DNA of 64,000 bases from the IMG/VR virus record IMGVR_UViG_3300045988_171772, positions 1 through 64,000 of that record. The stretch is one strand, 5' to 3'. This DNA comes from a virus. The position numbers and the translations under genes were made by a program. The notes under the pieces are model-generated. The model ran no database searches, had not been told where the DNA came from, and saw only the letters and a program-made list of their open reading frames with translations. This document shows positions 58,598 to 62,956 of this stretch, piece after piece; the stretch's first letter is position 1; each line of letters opens with the position of its first letter.

Positions 58598-60655
58598 TTA
58601 GATCATGACATCACTGCCATCATCATCCGGAATGATGGAGCTCACCTTGGATACAAAGAGAGGATCCAGATGAGAGGATGCTGTCTTCTCATAGAATTCC
58701 GGAGAGAGCAGCTGCTTCTTCAGATATCCATAAGACAGAGAGATGACCGGAGAGGGATTCTTAAAGAGAGCATCATTCAATCTCAGAATGACGTAATCAT
58801 TCAGATCCCCATTGGGTCCAAAGTCAGGGTCTTCATAGACATTGCTCTTCTTCCGGATGAGAGCACGTACCAGCATCTCCATATGGACGAAGTTGTAGTC
58901 AATGCCTGCTTCCAACTGCTGCTCTGCCATCATCTGCAAGACTTCATCAATGGTATTGCAACCCATACGGTCGTTGGTATTGAGAAGCTTGTTGATATTC
59001 TTAATGGGCCGAGTCAGCTCCTGCGATTTGACCTCTACATTGAAGAGGACCGAAGAGTCATCATCGAAATTCTCCAGAGAGATGGGCTTGCTCCGATCTT
59101 TCTGCTTCAGAATCATAGAAGCCAACTGATCACTCAGATAGAGTTTGGCTCCACCTTCTTCCTTGATGGGATAGAGCACTCGACCAGAGAAGTCGATGAT
59201 ATTGAAAGAGTTGCAATAGTAATCAACCGTATCCTCGGTCTCTTCTTTGAGAATCTCCGGAATCTGGATAAAGAGTTCTTCATCCGATTCTGCATTCGAC
59301 TTCATTGTGATGTCGTTGGAGTAGAGCTCAAACTGCTCATCGAACTCCGGAGACATGACGATGGGATCACTGTGGGTCATCTGCAGATGCTTGGAAGAAA
59401 GGACACGCTGACCCAGAGGTTCAGTCACCTTCATAGCAGCATAGGCACCAGCAGAATAGAGATCCTTATTCAACTCAAAGAGTCCACCATAGCAGTAGGC
59501 ACAGATACCATCCCGAGATGCACAGGTACAAGGAGAACGGAACTGAATGTGATGACCAATCAGATCCTTGTCTCTCTTATAGCTCAGCATTTTCAGATCC
59601 CCGTTCTCGTCATAGTAATACCGACGATCGAGCATCTTGAGGAATTTGTCATCCTTGATGAAGTATGTAACCGGCTTGGATGTATTGCACTTGAGATAAT
59701 CTCTTCTCAATTGCACAGCTGTCGCAGCAGTGGTTGCCTTCTTGGAGAATGCGCCAGGCTCACCCATCTTGGTCTTGGACATAATCAGAGACTTACGACC
59801 AGACATGGCATCCAGATAATACGCAGAGGGACTGCTGATGCCATCCACTAAGATATTCTTGTCGATCAGATGAGGAACGGTGGTACCATTGATGTCAGAC
59901 TTCAAGCCGATCATAATGGCGATCTCTTTAAACTGACCTTTGCTCAGGTTATTGCCAGACTGGAAGAGAGGTTTCAGATCATTGTCTTCATCCTGTACGA
60001 AGAGATCAATCAATCTCGAAGTCCTCTTATCCAATTCTGCTTCAATCTCAATCGGCTGCAGATTGGGATCGAGTTTCTCATGCATGAGATAATCAATCTC
60101 AGGATTTCTCTTGGCAGCCTGAATGATGGAATAAACCGAAACGCCCAAACCAAAGATGGGAGAGAATGCCCGAGAAATGGCAGTCATATGATGGGTGATC
60201 TCATCAATGATGCGACTCTGGGTATGGAAATCCACATCGGTGATATTGGGAAGAATCATATCATTGATATACTCAGTGATCTGATTCATAGAGGCATTCT
60301 TGAAATCAAAGATGAAAGATTCATCCAGGATATCATAGCAGTCACATTCCATGAATGCATACCACAGAATGAGATTGCTCAAGAAATGCCGAATTTGTAA
60401 AGTATGCAGATTCTTTTTCTTATCCTTCTCATCTCCATGATGAATATAGAAGTGAATCGGCATGGTGCGGATCTCTTTGTCTTCGAATTTGTATTTCAGA
60501 ATATCCAAAAGATCCTGGTAGACTTCCTCAAAGGAATCCTTATCCTTCAGGATATCATCGAGGAAGAAATAGACGTTGCTGTAGGTGGACATCAATTCCT
60601 CGAAGGATTTCTTCGGATGCCCATCGTATTCAATCGTAATACCTGCTCCCATCAT
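58598..60655 (-). CDS. multisubunit RNA polymerase beta'-like subunit, C-terminal half
   Basis: Bridge-helix region SGNNLSKGQFKEIAIMIGLK...AMSGRKSLIMSKTKMGEPG and trigger-loop region FRSPCTCASRDGICAYCYG...AAMKVTEPLGQRVLSSKH parallel bacterial beta' (SGARG..[28 protein letters not shown]...GVCA.CYG...IGEPGTQLTMRTFH). Confidence 0.8.
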   Translation of the reverse strand: MMGAGITIEYDGHPKKSFEELMSTYSNVYFFLDDILKDKDSFEEVYQDLLDILKYKFEDKEIRTMPIHFYIHHGDEKDKKKNLHTLQIRHFLSNLILWYAFMECDCYDILDESFIFDFKNASMNQITEYINDMILPNITDVDFHTQSRIIDEITHHMTAISRAFSPIFGLGVSVYSIIQAAKRNPEIDYLMHEKLDPNLQPIEIEAELDKRTSRLIDLFVQDEDNDLKPLFQSGNNLSKGQFKEIAIMIGLKSDINGTTVPHLIDKNILVDGISSPSAYYLDAMSGRKSLIMSKTKMGEPGAFSKKATTAATAVQLRRDYLKCNTSKPVTYFIKDDKFLKMLDRRYYYDENGDLKMLSYKRDKDLIGHHIQFRSPCTCASRDGICAYCYGGLFELNKDLYSAGAYAAMKVTEPLGQRVLSSKHLQMTHSDPIVMSPEFDEQFELYSNDITMKSNAESDEELFIQIPEILKEETEDTVDYYCNSFNIIDFSGRVLYPIKEEGGAKLYLSDQLASMILKQKDRSKPISLENFDDDSSVLFNVEVKSQELTRPIKNINKLLNTNDRMGCNTIDEVLQMMAEQQLEAGIDYNFVHMEMLVRALIRKKSNVYEDPDFGPNGDLNDYVILRLNDALFKNPSPVISLSYGYLKKQLLSPEFYEKTASSHLDPLFVSKVSSIIPDDDGSDVMI

Positions 60656-60658
60656 TCT

Positions 60659-61171
60659 TTACTCCTCTGCTTCCGTGTTGAGTTCTTCGGAAGGAATCTC
60701 CTCATCTTCCGAAGCTTCTTCTCCATGCACCTTCTTCTCAATCTCTTTGGAGACTTTCTTCATACGATTCTCCATCGCATTCTTCCAATCGGTGGAGGTA
60801 TCCTCCTTTTCTACGATTTTGATCTCGGCATACTTCAATCCATCAAACTGGACCGAAGAGTCATACTCATTGATGAATTTGAGATAGTCCTCCAGACTGT
60901 CAAAGGAGATCTCAACGGGGAATCCTTTGGCTTGACAGGTATCACTGTTATAGTATTCAGCAATCTCCTGGTGAATGTGGTATCCGGCATCACAAGGTTC
61001 CGGATTCGGATTGAAATAGAAGTTATCGAAGAGCTCCATGAAGGGAGTGAATGCACCACTCATACCGACATCGGAGTTGGAAGAGACATTCAGGTCGATC
61101 TTCCCAAGATAGGAGGGATGGATATTACGATATTTCTGGGAAATGATTTTAGAGCTCTGCTCACCTAGAGA
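60659..61171 (-). CDS. RNA polymerase beta-like subunit (N-terminal-half type), exon 2
   Basis: Starts SLGEQSSKIISQKYRNIHPSYLGKIDL..SDVGMSGAF (compare beta RDVHPSHYGR.CP.ETPEG.N.GL). In frame with exon 1 after intron removal. Confidence 0.75.
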   Translation of the reverse strand, partial: SLGEQSSKIISQKYRNIHPSYLGKIDLNVSSNSDVGMSGAFTPFMELFDNFYFNPNPEPCDAGYHIHQEIAEYYNSDTCQAKGFPVEISFDSLEDYLKFINEYDSSVQFDGLKYAEIKIVEKEDTSTDWKNAMENRMKKVSKEIEKKVHGEEASEDEEIPSEELNTEAEE

Positions 61172-61579
61172 CGACTTATAGGTTTCACTATAAGACTGAC
61201 TATATCTTACCCGAGATAAGGAGTTCTTTCTTATCTCGAATCTCTCCCGCTTTGATTGAATGGAATTACGATAGACTACTGTCATCTATCTACCAACTAA
61301 GAGAAGTCTCTTAGCTCTACTCTACTCAGTTCTACCTGAGGTATTCCTACCTAAGTTACCCTTTCGATAGTCGATGAACCTTATCCTACTTTCATAGGAT
61401 CTTGGCTGCGTGATTGGCCCTACTCTCGACCTTGTTACTATACCAACTGAAATAATGTCCTCTTTAGATCAAGTCCAGTTGCCATATAGGCAGTGATGTC
61501 TATATTTAGTAGTCGGGATTTGACAGGCTATCGTCCCCGCAATTCAAGAGAGTTTATACCGAACTCTTTCAGGTATCAA
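61172..61579 (-). ncRNA. group I self-splicing intron (no internal ORF)
   Basis: P AATTGCGGGG 61544-61535, Q AATCCCGAC 61520-61512, R GGTTCATCGACTATCG 61380-61365, S AAGATATAGTC 61208-61198. P1 ACCGAAU/GUUCGGU with U.G at the 5' splice site. P9 hairpin 61194-61175. Terminal G at 61172. Confidence 0.85.
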
Positions 61580-62956
61580 ATTCGGTCCTTTAGCAGAGAA
61601 ATAGAGATCTTGGAGCATGGTCATATCATTGACCAACTCATCGGATTTCACAAGGTCTCCAATGTTTCTCATGCCATTGATGATGATGTCCGAACCAAAG
61701 TTGAAGAGTTCCAGGAGGGTATCCATGGTATTCAACTTAGACTTGGACTTCTTCTCGATGAGCTTGTTGATATTCTCGTTGATCTTCTTTCCCAGAGAAG
61801 ACATAACGATGTATTCATTCTTCCGGATTCTCTTATTATCCAGATCCATATTATTCCGATTCTTGAGAGAATCAAAATCCAGGATCATCCATCTGAGAAT
61901 CGAGTAGATATTCTTCTTATAACAGTCAGGAAGACGGAGATTGACCTGGGTAATGGTATCCAAGAGTCTCTCGATCATATGCATGGTGGTTTTGCCCTTC
62001 TCTGCAAAGGTCTCGAGATTCTTAGAGTGAGCAGATCCAATGGAACCTACTCGACAGGTCCAATACATAGTATTCTCTACCGTCTCCATGGTCATAGGAA
62101 AGTCTGCAGACATGCAGGCCGCGATCATAGCGGTGAAGTTTCCTACAAACGGTACATTCTCCATGAGGTAACGATCTACCTGGAGAATGATCTCATTCAC
62201 CCCGAAATACCGATACCGCTCATGATCATACTGATCCGCATGATCATCAAAGAAGAGCTTATCGAAGGGGAGAATCTTGATGACATCCTGGAGGCCAAAG
62301 TAGGCAATGGTATTCTTCAATCCAATCTTCGCAGAGAAGATCATGACAGGATTGATGAATTTTACCTTGGCTGCTTTGGACTTGGATGCAAATCTCGTCT
62401 TCCGATTCAATGCATAGCTATAGGTAGAGAATTGCATGACCTCACCATTCATATCGATGAGAGGACGCTTCTTACTCTTATAGACGATGATCGGCATACG
62501 GGACTTCATCGTGATCTTACCCTTCTGACTATAGGTAGATGCATCCACCAGCTGCCAGAGAGCTTTCCACTTTTTGTTATTGAGGGTATAGAATCCATCA
62601 TACTCAATCGGAATCAGAATCTTCTTGACGATATTCCTCTCATTCTTATTCGTCTTGATGTTGACGTGGAACTGGATCTCACCCACTCGATTGGTAGCCA
62701 GATATTTGAATTTGGGAATGTCATAATTCCCAGACTTTCTTTTGTAGTTGATATTGACAGAGTGCTCATTCACATCCACTTTGTCAGGATCCACTACGAT
62801 GTCATACCCGGTGATGGTGATGTTTTCAATGGCTTCAAATTCTTTCATCGCCATCACAACCAGATCGGGAATGGGGATGTCATTCTCCGATCTCAGAAAA
62901 GGAAGATTGAGCTCCTTTTCCATAGGATTGGGAAATTGATAGATATAATTTAGCAT
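61580..62956 (-). CDS. RNA polymerase beta-like subunit, exon 1
   Basis: TAGGAGA RBS. Ends ..DLYFSAKGPN (compare beta ..SALGPGG). The ORF-track tail LIPERVRYKLS* lies inside the intron. Confidence 0.75.

What the first reader, a model, noticed from the sequence alone, without database searches (positions are those of the whole stretch)
58598..62956. Two subunits of a phiKZ/AR9-style split multisubunit RNA polymerase in one operon
The spliced gene 61580..62956 + 60659..61171 encodes roughly the N-terminal half of a beta-like subunit (SAKGPN..RNIHPSYLGKI). Gene 58598..60655 encodes a beta'-like C-terminal half with bridge-helix and trigger-loop signatures. Neither is full length, and the catalytic NADFDGD (beta' N-terminal part) and the beta C-terminal part are not in this window. 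Split beta/beta' genes with the order beta-N then beta'-C are, as far as I recall, the layout of the non-virion RNAP of phiKZ (gp71-73, gp74) and of Bacillus phage AR9. The phiKZ gp71-73 gene is also intron-interrupted in my recollection. With the GroEL-like chaperonin, this places the element among jumbo phages that transcribe independently of the host. Here it is in a low-GC, SpoIIID-encoding (Firmicutes-type) context.
Basis: partly seen in the sequence, partly recalled or inferred. Interest (0 to 1): 0.65.

Follow-up and report, generated by a model that had tools for sequence, protein, structure and literature searches.

The report
Intron-split phage RNA polymerase gene pair
A human-gut giant phage carries two adjacent genes for pieces of its own bacterial-type RNA polymerase, one interrupted by a self-splicing intron; this is a new example of a known design, not a new kind of system.

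Summary
On the minus strand, 62956..61580 plus 61171..60659 encode a 629-aa beta N-terminal-half subunit. It is interrupted by a 408-nt group I intron (61579..61172; Rfam 58.2 bits). Gene 60655..58598 starts 3 nt after that stop and encodes a 685-aa beta' C-terminal half with bridge-helix, zinc-cysteine and trigger-loop motifs.

Both proteins match the solved AR9 non-virion RNA polymerase directly: gp105 at E 6e-39 and gp154 at E 5e-48. Metagenomes hold intron-less alleles, 99% identical and exactly 629 aa, that read KGPN|SLGE across the predicted junction. One such locus differs from the window by exactly the 408 nt.

No beta-C, beta'-N or sigma-like subunit was found in the window. No gene within about 8-10 kb beyond its high-coordinate end carries an RNA-polymerase Pfam domain. 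The low-coordinate end lies 40 nt from the end of the source contig. The rest of the roughly 255-kb human-gut contig could not be read.

phiKZ gp71-73 is the beta C-terminal half, and AR9's beta-N and beta'-C genes are about 43 kb apart. All three phages share a helicase gene downstream of beta'-C.

Verdict: a new member of a known kind, with a variant gene order and a new intron site. Interest is modest.

The parts
61580..62956 (-). Exon 1 of the beta N-terminal-half (betaN) gene: 459 codons, ending ...SAKGPN.
   Evidence: ORF list. Splice arithmetic. Colinear with AR9 gp105, PDB 7S00 chain c, E 5.9e-39. PHROG 2943 E 1.8e-15.
61172..61579 (-). Group I self-splicing intron, 408 nt, with no endonuclease ORF.
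   Evidence: Rfam RF00028 scores 58.2 bits against a gathering score of 50, over the full model. P1 helix with a U.G pair at the 5' splice site and a terminal G. Fold z-score -3.3. Exactly this stretch is missing from the intron-less locus L013.
60659..61171 (-). Exon 2 of the betaN gene: 170 codons plus stop. It starts SLGEQSSKIISQKYRNIHPSYLGKI and ends in an acidic tail.
   Evidence: In frame with exon 1. PHROG 2943 positions 454-519. Intron-less 629-aa alleles P0001 and P0004 read through the junction.
58598..60655 (-). Gene for the beta' C-terminal half (beta'C), 685 aa, starting 3 nt after the betaN stop codon. It carries bridge-helix-like, CxC...CxxC and trigger-loop-like motifs.
   Evidence: PDB hits: 7S00 chain D (AR9 gp154) E 4.9e-48, phiKZ gp74 E 2.2e-8, bacterial beta' around residues 720-960. 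PHROG 3015 E 4.1e-47. The family has 1298 representatives at 50% clustering.
62985..63038 (-). Hairpin followed by a U-tract (terminator-like) between the upstream 140-aa gene and the betaN start codon.
   Evidence: Fold -32.1 kcal/mol, z-score -4.2. A hairpin plus T-tract is kept at this position in L013, L082 and L080 although the sequence changes. Its function was not tested.
55705..57195 (-). SF2 (DEAD/ResIII) helicase gene downstream of beta'C. This is the syntenic partner of AR9 gp156 and phiKZ gp75.
   Evidence: PHROG 16 E 2.3e-33. Pfam DEAD/ResIII on the identical gene in L002. blastp to AR9 gp156 E 4.5e-26; phiKZ gp75 E 2e-4.

Best explanation
The window is one end of a roughly 255-kb jumbo-phage contig from a human gut metagenome. 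At 62956..58598 on the minus strand it carries two genes of the phage's own non-virion-type multisubunit RNA polymerase, the class solved for Bacillus phage AR9 and Pseudomonas phage phiKZ.

Gene 1 encodes the N-terminal half of the beta subunit (629 aa). It is interrupted, inside the conserved ...SAKGPN|SLGE...RNIHPSYLGKI segment, by a 408-nt group I intron that has no endonuclease ORF.

Gene 2 starts 3 nt after the stop codon of gene 1. It encodes the C-terminal half of beta' (685 aa), with the bridge helix, a zinc-binding cysteine cluster and the trigger loop.

Shown here:
- the homology of both proteins;
- the exact intron boundaries;
- the existence of intron-less and intron-containing alleles in nature.

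Inferred, not shown:
- the two genes are co-transcribed, and their translation may be coupled;
- the intron removes itself from the mRNA by the usual guanosine-initiated two-step transesterification, which restores the reading frame;
- the two polypeptides assemble with a beta C-terminal half, a beta' N-terminal half (carrying the DxDGD catalytic loop) and a sigma-like fifth subunit, all encoded elsewhere in the genome;
- the enzyme transcribes middle and late phage genes independently of the host polymerase, as in AR9 and phiKZ.

The intron belongs to a mobile family. An 85%-identical relative carries the same intron at the same site with an HNH homing endonuclease inside it.
For: - Direct sequence hits to the solved AR9 non-virion polymerase: betaN to 7S00 chain c at E 5.9e-39, colinear across the splice junction; beta'C to 7S00 chain D at E 4.9e-48.
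- beta'C also hits phiKZ gp74 (E 2.2e-8). It aligns to the bridge-helix and trigger-loop segments of bacterial beta'.
- The best tblastn hits in phage genomes are annotated non-virion subunits of Staphylococcus, Bacillus and Listeria jumbo phages, at about 25-30% identity.
- beta'C scores E 2e-47 to AR9 gp154 (non-virion) against 1.6e-4 to gp264 (virion).
- Intron: Rfam 58.2 bits; P1 helix with a U.G pair; terminal G.
- Intron-less 629-aa alleles at 99% identity give the exact junction, and the DNA difference from one of them is exactly 408 nt.
- The same intron with an HNH ORF is present in L082 (PHROG 59, E 1.9e-25).
- Context: DNA polymerase B, DnaB-like and Dda-like helicases, SbcCD and GroEL. 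These overlap the core gene set of polymerase-encoding jumbo phages listed in PMC7598289.
- The source contig is 254,993 bp, and related contigs are 230-290 kb.
- The beta'C-to-helicase synteny is shared with AR9 and phiKZ.
Against: - The other three subunits were not found. They are not in the window. No gene called within about 8-10 kb beyond the window's high-coordinate end has an RNA-polymerase Pfam hit. On the low-coordinate side the source contig ends 40 nt beyond window position 1.
Splicing and co-transcription are therefore untested.
- A conserved hairpin plus U-tract lies just upstream of betaN, and no recognisable promoter follows it. The limits of the transcription unit are uncertain.
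- The link from betaN to cellular beta rests on AR9 gp105 alone. Neither the single sequence nor a seven-sequence profile reached bacterial beta in the PDB, and the AlphaFold model was unusable (pLDDT 40).
Confidence: 0.87

Rival explanations
1. The two genes encode subunits of the virion-packaged (early) RNA polymerase of the phage, not the non-virion (middle/late) enzyme.
For: Jumbo phages of this group usually carry two paralogous sets (PMC7598289). Sequence alone cannot show whether a protein is packaged.
Against: - The best matches are all non-virion subunits.
- beta'C scores E 2e-47 to AR9 gp154 against 1.6e-4 to the virion paralogue gp264.
- The gene sits next to the same helicase as the non-virion beta'C genes of AR9 and phiKZ.
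Confidence: 0.06
2. The intron no longer splices. The phage either has a broken betaN gene or makes two separate polypeptides of 470 aa and about 170-208 aa.
For: The intron has no endonuclease ORF, and its Rfam score (58.2) is only modestly above the threshold of 50. Gene callers report 470-aa and 208-aa products. Splicing was not observed.
Against: - The match covers the full covariance model, with an intact P1 helix, U.G pair and terminal G.
- The interrupted segment is nearly invariant across the clade.
- Intron-containing alleles are common: the P0010 cluster has 115 members, and nine of the 120 listed clusters are intron-containing.
- They sit on long contigs, including the 254,993-bp source contig and a 235,186-bp scaffold.
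- The read-through tail LIPERVRYKLS is intron sequence, not conserved protein.
Confidence: 0.04
3. The locus is cellular or plasmid DNA (a split bacterial rpoB/rpoC remnant) and not part of a phage.
For: A 68%-identical relative lies on a contig binned into an 'uncultured Akkermansia sp.' metagenome-assembled genome.
Against: - All significant homologues are jumbo-phage proteins.
- The neighbouring genes are phage replication genes and tail-fibre-like genes.
- Related contigs are 230-290 kb and consistent in size.
- Bacterial beta' is only a remote hit (E about 1e-6).
- Binning a phage contig into a genome bin is weak evidence.
Confidence: 0.02

Closest known systems
Bacillus phage AR9 / PBS1 non-virion RNA polymerase (gp105 betaN, gp154 beta'C, gp089 betaC, gp270 beta'N, gp226; PDB 7S00/7S01/7UM0/7UM1)
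   Same: - Closest solved relative of both proteins (E 5.9e-39 and 4.9e-48; about 29% identity).
- Same split of beta and beta' into halves.
- beta'C is followed by an SF2 helicase.
- An NAD-dependent ligase lies a few kb upstream of betaN.
- GroEL, DNA polymerase B and SbcCD are also present.
   Different: - AR9's betaN and beta'C genes are about 43 kb apart; here they are 3 nt apart.
- AR9 gp105 has no intron. AR9's non-virion intron sits in beta'N, after the SGDYDG at the end of its first exon.
- betaN here has an extra C-terminal tail of about 110 aa, ending in an acidic stretch.
- In the phmmer alignment AR9 gp105 R363 aligns with a lysine here and K375 with a threonine. In AR9 these two residues help form the -10 uracil pocket (PMC9209446).
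- gp226, gp089 and gp270 homologues were not found in the window.
Pseudomonas phage phiKZ non-virion RNA polymerase (gp55, gp68, gp71-73, gp74, gp123; PDB 7OGP)
   Same: - gp74 is a beta'C homologue (E 2.2e-8), followed directly by helicase gp75.
- The gene just upstream of beta'C is a beta fragment interrupted by a group I intron (Rfam 87.6 bits).
   Different: - The upstream gene in phiKZ is the beta C-terminal half, not the N-terminal half.
- Its intron lies between the gp71 and gp73 coding regions, within the beta C-terminal half. gp71 ends FHGGN.
- A 316-aa ORF, gp72, sits between gp71 and gp73. From my own knowledge gp72 is a homing endonuclease; this was not tested here.
- Similarity to phiKZ is much more distant than to AR9.
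Mobile group I introns in conserved sites of phage genes, including RNA polymerase genes of jumbo phages (AR9 g078, g145, g189, g270; the PhiPA3 intron endonuclease that nicks the phiKZ virion polymerase gene, Birkholz et al. 2024, cited in PMC12908238)
   Same: - Insertion in a nearly invariant coding segment of an essential gene.
- Presence/absence polymorphism among close relatives.
- A version carrying an HNH endonuclease exists in a relative.
   Different: - The window's copy has no endonuclease ORF.
- The insertion site, KGPN|SLGE of betaN, is not one of the sites annotated in AR9 or phiKZ.
- A relative at 49% identity has a different group I intron 3 nt upstream.
Staphylococcus jumbo phages (MarsHill, Madawaska, PALS2, S6) and Listeria phage LPJP1
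   Same: Best tblastn hits for beta'C, at about 30% identity over 76% of the protein, annotated as non-virion beta'.
   Different: No nucleotide-level similarity: megablast finds nothing in 50,697 phage records. The window belongs to an uncultured clade seen in ENA and Logan metagenome assemblies.

Membership tests
AR9/phiKZ-type jumbo-phage non-virion multisubunit RNA polymerase | A stand-alone polypeptide homologous to the N-terminal half of beta | tested here: met
   629-aa spliced product. PDB 7S00 chain c (AR9 gp105) E 5.9e-39; a seven-sequence profile gives 2.3e-46. PHROG 2943.
AR9/phiKZ-type jumbo-phage non-virion multisubunit RNA polymerase | A stand-alone polypeptide homologous to the C-terminal half of beta', with bridge helix and trigger loop | tested here: met
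   PDB 7S00 chain D E 4.9e-48; phiKZ gp74 E 2.2e-8. The motifs AYYLDAMSGRKSLIMSKTKMGEPGAF, RSPCTCASRDGICAYCYG and AAMKVTEPLGQRVLSSKH align to bacterial beta'.
AR9/phiKZ-type jumbo-phage non-virion multisubunit RNA polymerase | Closer to the non-virion paralogues than to the virion paralogues | tested here: met
   beta'C scores E 2e-47 to AR9 gp154 against 1.6e-4 to the virion paralogue gp264. Only one matching place per AR9-like genome at E 1e-5.
AR9/phiKZ-type jumbo-phage non-virion multisubunit RNA polymerase | The same genome encodes a beta' N-terminal half with DxDGD and a beta C-terminal half with the double-psi barrel lysines | tested here: inconclusive
   Absent from the window: tblastn and phmmer with AR9 gp089 and gp270, plus PHROG scans of 20 large ORFs. 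No RNA-polymerase Pfam domain on the genes called beyond the high-coordinate end. The source contig ends 40 nt beyond the low-coordinate end. About 190 kb of the contig could not be read.
AR9/phiKZ-type jumbo-phage non-virion multisubunit RNA polymerase | A sigma-like fifth subunit (AR9 gp226 / phiKZ gp68) | tested here: inconclusive
   No window ORF matches gp226 by phmmer. None of the nine uncharacterised window ORFs scanned hits its PHROG 25005 at E up to 1. This subunit diverges beyond sequence detection even between AR9 and phiKZ (PMC9209446).
AR9/phiKZ-type jumbo-phage non-virion multisubunit RNA polymerase | Transcription activity on phage middle/late promoters, independent of the host polymerase and without alpha or omega subunits | not testable with these tools
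   Needs biochemistry or infection experiments.
Group I self-splicing intron | Conserved catalytic core recognised by the Rfam covariance model at or above its gathering score | tested here: met
   RF00028: 58.2 bits against 50, model positions 1-253, E 3e-12 for the whole window.
Group I self-splicing intron | 5' exon ends in U paired with G in P1; intron ends in G; short P10 pairing with the 3' exon | tested here: met
   ACCGAAU|UU pairs with GAGUUCGGU, with U61580.G. The terminal G is at 61172. AGA/UCU is a possible P10 pairing (read from the sequence; P1 also appears in the minimum-energy fold).
Group I self-splicing intron | Removal restores an uninterrupted, conserved reading frame; intron-less alleles exist | tested here: met
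   P0001 to P0005 are 629 aa and 99% identical. P0001 and P0004, read in full, give KGPNSLGE. KGPNSLGE is present in 109 of the 120 listed proteins. L013 lacks exactly 408 nt.
Group I self-splicing intron | Observed splicing (ligated exons in RNA) | not testable with these tools
Mobile (homing) intron | Intron-encoded homing endonuclease | tested here: not met
   The 408-nt copy in the window holds no ORF beyond exon read-through. The same intron in L082 (1040 nt) carries a 207-aa HNH endonuclease (PHROG 59, E 1.9e-25). In L080 it carries a 148-aa ORF with no family hit.
   gp71 matches AR9 betaC gp089 (E 1.9e-15) and has no hit to either betaN. PMC8287921 places the beta barrel lysines and the flap in gp71-73.

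The most novel reading that the evidence does not exclude
In this abundant, uncultured gut jumbo-phage clade the betaN intron may be a weapon-and-shield system in co-infections, as shown for PhiPA3 against phiKZ.
- Relatives carry the same intron with an HNH endonuclease. That enzyme would cut the intron-less KGPN|SLGE target in the essential polymerase gene of competitors.
- The ORF-less copy in this window would make its carrier immune without paying for the endonuclease.
- A second, unrelated intron 3 nt away in another lineage would be an independent solution for the same target.

A further reading concerns the 3-nt betaN-to-beta'C junction and the linkage to the helicase that phiKZ also shows. 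Together they could preserve an ancestral polymerase gene cluster. This would bear on the proposal that the split polymerase genes arose through intron activity followed by rearrangement (PMC7598289).
Probability: 0.25. Interest if true: 0.5.

Novelty: new member of a known kind. Interest (0 to 1): 0.3.

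Why it matters
- It extends AR9-type, host-independent transcription machinery to a large clade of uncultured jumbo phages (contigs 230-290 kb). The source sample is a human gut metagenome. The clade comprises hundreds of protein clusters in public assemblies and has no nucleotide-level match in the 50,697 phage records searched.
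- It shows that the order of the split polymerase genes is fluid. betaN-beta'C is adjacent here, betaC-beta'C is adjacent in phiKZ, the genes are dispersed in AR9, and a distant relative has an unsplit 1201-aa beta'. The beta'C-to-helicase link persists throughout.
- It adds a natural intron-plus / intron-minus / intron-plus-endonuclease series at one site of an essential polymerase gene. This is ready material for testing intron homing and interference between co-infecting jumbo phages.
- None of this changes the current picture of these enzymes.

Tried and rejected
1. Pfam found nothing for either polymerase protein. The proteins are too divergent for the cellular Rpb1/Rpb2 models. PHROGs and PDB sequence searches were needed instead.
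2. Megablast of the locus against the phage collection found no match.
3. AlphaFold2 of betaN from a seven-sequence alignment gave pLDDT 40 and pTM 0.31. No fold search was run on it.
4. A profile search of betaN against the PDB reached only AR9 gp105. It did not reach bacterial beta or phiKZ gp123.
5. The hunt for the missing subunits failed.
   - AR9 gp089, gp226 and gp270 against the window gave nothing.
   - P0145 (tried because its contig length resembled those of the clade) and P0246 come from other phages. P0246's contig L017 is much closer to AR9 in gene order and sequence.
   - P0182 matched the 9033-bp contig length of P0013 only by coincidence.
   - IMG/VR scans with a betaC alignment and with a clade-specific DNA pattern did not link betaC to contigs that carry betaN.
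   - IMG/VR holds no close relative of beta'C.
6. Walking along the source contig was impossible, because only window-encoded or search-returned proteins can be looked up.
8. The sigma-70 promoter scan found no more sites than shuffled sequence (18 against 21 expected). It was rejected as uninformative for a phage with its own polymerases.
9. Comparing intron and exon identity to infer recent horizontal transfer was inconclusive. Against L082 the intron 5' part is 87% identical, exon 1 overall is 78%, and the last 300 nt of exon 1 are also 87%.
10. The 198-aa gene downstream of beta'C shows no detectable similarity to AR9 gp155.

Full report
**What is in the sequence.** On the minus strand the ORF list shows three consecutive reading frames. 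They are 62956..61544 (470 aa), 61285..60659 (208 aa) and 60655..58598 (685 aa). Long ORFs on the opposite strand (486, 393 and 254 aa) have no support from any search and are treated as antisense artefacts. Rfam finds exactly one RNA family at gathering score in all 64 kb. It is a group I intron at 61604..61176 on the minus strand: 58.2 bits against a threshold of 50, over the full model. PHROG 2943 ('polymerase') matches the 470-aa ORF at profile positions 83-414 and the 208-aa ORF at positions 454-519. That is the pattern expected of one gene cut in two.

**The splice junction.** Exon 1 ends ...GGA CCG AAU at 61580. The next bases, UUGAUACCUGAAAGAGUUCGGU, fold back so that ACCGAAU pairs with GUUCGGU. 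The exon's last U pairs with a G, which is the hallmark of the P1 helix (the same helix appears in the minimum-energy fold). The intron ends in G at 61172, and exon 2 begins UCU CUA GGU. Joining 62956..61580 to 61171..60659 gives 1377 + 513 nt, in frame, for 629 aa.

Nature provides the control. Five metagenomic proteins (P0001 to P0005) are 629 aa long and 99% identical. P0001 and P0004 were read in full and give ...LYFSAKGPNSLGEQSSKIISQKYRNIHPSYLGKI.... The uninterrupted KGPNSLGE motif is present in 109 of the 120 listed proteins. One intron-less locus, L013, aligns to window 64000..61579 and to 61171..50685 at about 95-96% identity, with the two blocks abutting. The window therefore has exactly 408 extra bases.

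**What the proteins are.** The spliced product hits chain c of the AR9 non-virion polymerase structures (gp105, the beta N-terminal half) at E 5.9e-39. The alignment runs straight through the junction. A seven-sequence profile improves this to 2.3e-46.

The 685-aa protein has these hits:
- chain D of the same structures (gp154, the beta' C-terminal half) at E 4.9e-48;
- phiKZ gp74 at E 2.2e-8;
- bacterial beta' at about 1e-6, over residues 720-960.

Residue-level alignments to bacterial beta' cover three segments:
- the bridge-helix segment, ...AYYLDAMSGRKSLIMSKTKMGEPGAF... against ...[26 protein letters not shown]...;
- the cysteine cluster, RSPCTCASRDGICAYCYG;
- the first arm of the trigger loop, AAMKVTEPLGQRVLSSKH against AAQSIGEPGTQLTMRTFH.

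Against AR9 DNA, beta'C scores E 2e-47 to the non-virion gene and only 1.6e-4 to the virion paralogue gp264. Neither protein is full length relative to cellular beta or beta'. Each has its own start and stop codon. An exhaustive search of 1.84 billion representatives returns 1298 relatives of beta'C. Nearly all of the listed hits are fragment-sized (about 620-720 aa).

**Context.** The window is 100% identical to a Logan contig of run ERR414370. It is 99.99% identical to the last 12.5 kb of an ENA contig of 254,993 bp labelled human gut metagenome. It therefore corresponds to one end of that contig. Relatives sit on contigs of 230-290 kb.

The window also encodes these proteins:
- a family B DNA polymerase;
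- DnaB-like and Dda-like helicases;
- SbcC and SbcD;
- a GroEL-like chaperonin;
- a SpoIIID-like protein.

This set overlaps the core genes listed for polymerase-encoding jumbo phages in PMC7598289. No phage record shares nucleotide similarity with the locus.

**Are the other subunits there?** AR9 betaC (gp089), beta'N (gp270, exon 1) and the sigma-like gp226 find nothing in the window by tblastn or phmmer. PHROG scans of the 20 largest other ORFs find no polymerase subunit. At relaxed thresholds, no gp226-family hit appears either. The genes called within about 8-10 kb beyond the high-coordinate end show no RNA-polymerase Pfam domains. On the low-coordinate side the source contig ends 40 nt beyond window position 1. 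I could not read the remaining roughly 190 kb, and my attempts to identify this phage's betaC among database hits failed. A complete enzyme is thus an inference from family membership.

phiKZ has gp71, then the 316-aa ORF gp72, then gp73, then gp74 (beta'C), then gp75 (helicase). But gp71 matches AR9 betaC (E 1.9e-15) and matches neither betaN. The phiKZ structure paper places the beta barrel lysines and the flap in gp71-73 (PMC8287921). In AR9, betaN (gp105, at 83 kb) and beta'C (gp154, at 128 kb) are far apart. gp154 is followed by gp155 and then by helicase gp156.

Here the order is ligase, 232-aa gene, 140-aa gene, betaN, beta'C, 70-aa gene, 78-aa gene, 198-aa gene, helicase. The helicase is homologous to AR9 gp156 (E 4.5e-26) and weakly to phiKZ gp75 (E 2e-4). 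The feature shared by all three is beta'C followed by the helicase. The betaN-beta'C adjacency is a variant.

Within the clade, adjacency holds in relatives at 68%, 66% and 47% identity. In a fourth relative it is broken by a thymidylate-kinase-like gene. In a fifth, no beta'C lies within 10 kb. A 1201-aa unsplit beta' with NADFDGD exists in a distant relative.

**The intron as a family.** Nine of the 120 listed betaN clusters are truncated, intron-containing alleles. All read KGPN followed by LI[PL][EK]RVRYKL..., which is the same intron 5' end. They occur in lineages at 98%, 85% and 66% protein identity.
- In L082 the intron is 1040 nt. It carries a 207-aa HNH endonuclease (PHROG 59, E 1.9e-25) at the point where the window's copy lacks about 650 nt.
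- In L080 it carries a 148-aa ORF with no family hit.
- A 49%-identical relative, L010, has a different group I intron (319 nt, Rfam 88.6 bits) inserted 3 nt upstream, between KGP and NSLGE. It too has a U.G splice site and a terminal G.

This fits the known rule that homing introns target invariant codons of essential genes (PMC12908238). It also parallels AR9, whose beta'N intron follows SGDYDG at the end of exon 1, and phiKZ, whose intron lies within the beta C-terminal-half gene. The window's own copy has no endonuclease, so it does not meet that criterion of a self-mobile intron.

From memory of E. coli RpoB (SALGPGGL...RDVHPTHYGRVCPIETPEG), the interrupted segment corresponds to the fork-loop-2 / Rif-region stretch of beta. 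This was not tested here.

**Transcription unit.** The 3-nt gap and the GGAG just upstream of the beta'C start codon argue for co-transcription and perhaps coupled translation. This is inference. Upstream of betaN lies a strong hairpin followed by a U-tract (z-score -4.2). A hairpin plus T-tract is kept at this position in three relatives although the sequence changes.

A phage-specific promoter-like motif, aaWtYtcNN-TATAT[TC]AT, precedes many genes. The core TATATTAT occurs 14 times against 4.3 expected, and none of 100 shuffles reached 14. It resembles the AR9 early promoter AAATATATATTAT. It occurs before the ligase gene (L002:4333) and before the 198-aa gene (57863), but not directly before betaN. 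Whether betaN and beta'C are read from the ligase promoter through the hairpin, or from an unrecognised promoter, is open.

**Verdict.** The recalled layout analogy is incorrect. The locus is a new member of the AR9/phiKZ class of split phage polymerases. It comes from an abundant, uncultured clade, with a variant gene order and a polymorphic, ORF-less group I intron at a site not annotated in AR9 or phiKZ. Interest is modest.

Noticed in passing
window, 14 exact sites (e.g. 6172, 10134, 12681, 26751, 27173, 44784 on +; 29711, 48781, 51022 on -), plus TATATCAT variants at 20741 (+), 53916 (-) and 57863 (-): A promoter-like motif, aaWtYtcNN-TATAT[TC]AT, lies 10-80 nt upstream of many same-strand genes. 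TATATTAT occurs 14 times against 4.3 expected, and none of 100 shuffles reached 14. It resembles the AR9 early (virion polymerase) promoter AAATATATATTAT.
   Followed up: partly
window 9793..10059 (+): An 88-aa SpoIIID-family DNA-binding protein (Pfam PF12116, E 2.8e-23) lies just upstream of the family B DNA polymerase gene. It is a sporulation-type regulator carried by a phage and a weak hint of a Firmicutes host.
   Followed up: partly
window 18438..20687 (+): The GroEL-like chaperonin is 749 aa. The PHROG GroEL profile is covered by residues 14-599, which leaves a C-terminal extension of about 150 aa with no match.
   Followed up: no
L010:1851..2169 and L010:2542..3534 (IMG/VR relative, 49% identity): A different group I intron (Rfam 88.6 bits) sits 3 nt upstream of the window's intron site in the same betaN motif. 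A thymidylate-kinase-like gene (330 aa) is inserted between betaN and beta'C.
   Followed up: partly
L082:6096..7135 (Logan contig, relative at 85% protein identity): The same intron as in the window, at the same site, but 1040 nt long and carrying a 207-aa HNH endonuclease (PHROG 59, E 1.9e-25). L080 (66% relative) has the intron with a 148-aa ORF of unknown family.
   Followed up: partly
L017:10001..15126 (271-kb ENA contig of an AR9-like phage, not this clade): Its betaC gene is broken into at least five pieces, at AR9 gp089 positions of about 371, 406, 532 and 575. A LAGLIDADG-type ORF follows the first piece. This is an extreme intron or intein load on a polymerase gene.
   Followed up: no
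P0358 (1201 aa, from the representative search): An unsplit beta' in a distant relative (30% identity to beta'C). Its N-terminal part matches AR9 gp270 and contains NADFDGD, joined to a beta'C part. Not all members of this polymerase family are split.
   Followed up: partly
L079 (GTDB contig CANQJI010000002.1, 69 kb): A relative with 68% betaN identity and the same betaN-beta'C-helicase order lies on a contig binned into an 'uncultured Akkermansia sp.' genome from a sample labelled Lapin. This is either a binning artefact or a host hint that conflicts with the Firmicutes guess.
   Followed up: no
L011:3532..4671 (236-kb ENA contig carrying betaC P0145): A tubulin-family gene (Pfam PF00091) lies 5 kb upstream of a betaC gene in another gut jumbo phage. 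That betaC gene is followed by an HNH/NUMOD endonuclease ORF.
   Followed up: no
window 61493..62953 (+), 58670..59851 (+), 60404..61168 (+): Long ORFs (486, 393 and 254 aa) run antisense to the polymerase genes. No search gave them any support, so they look like by-products of codon composition rather than genes.
   Followed up: no
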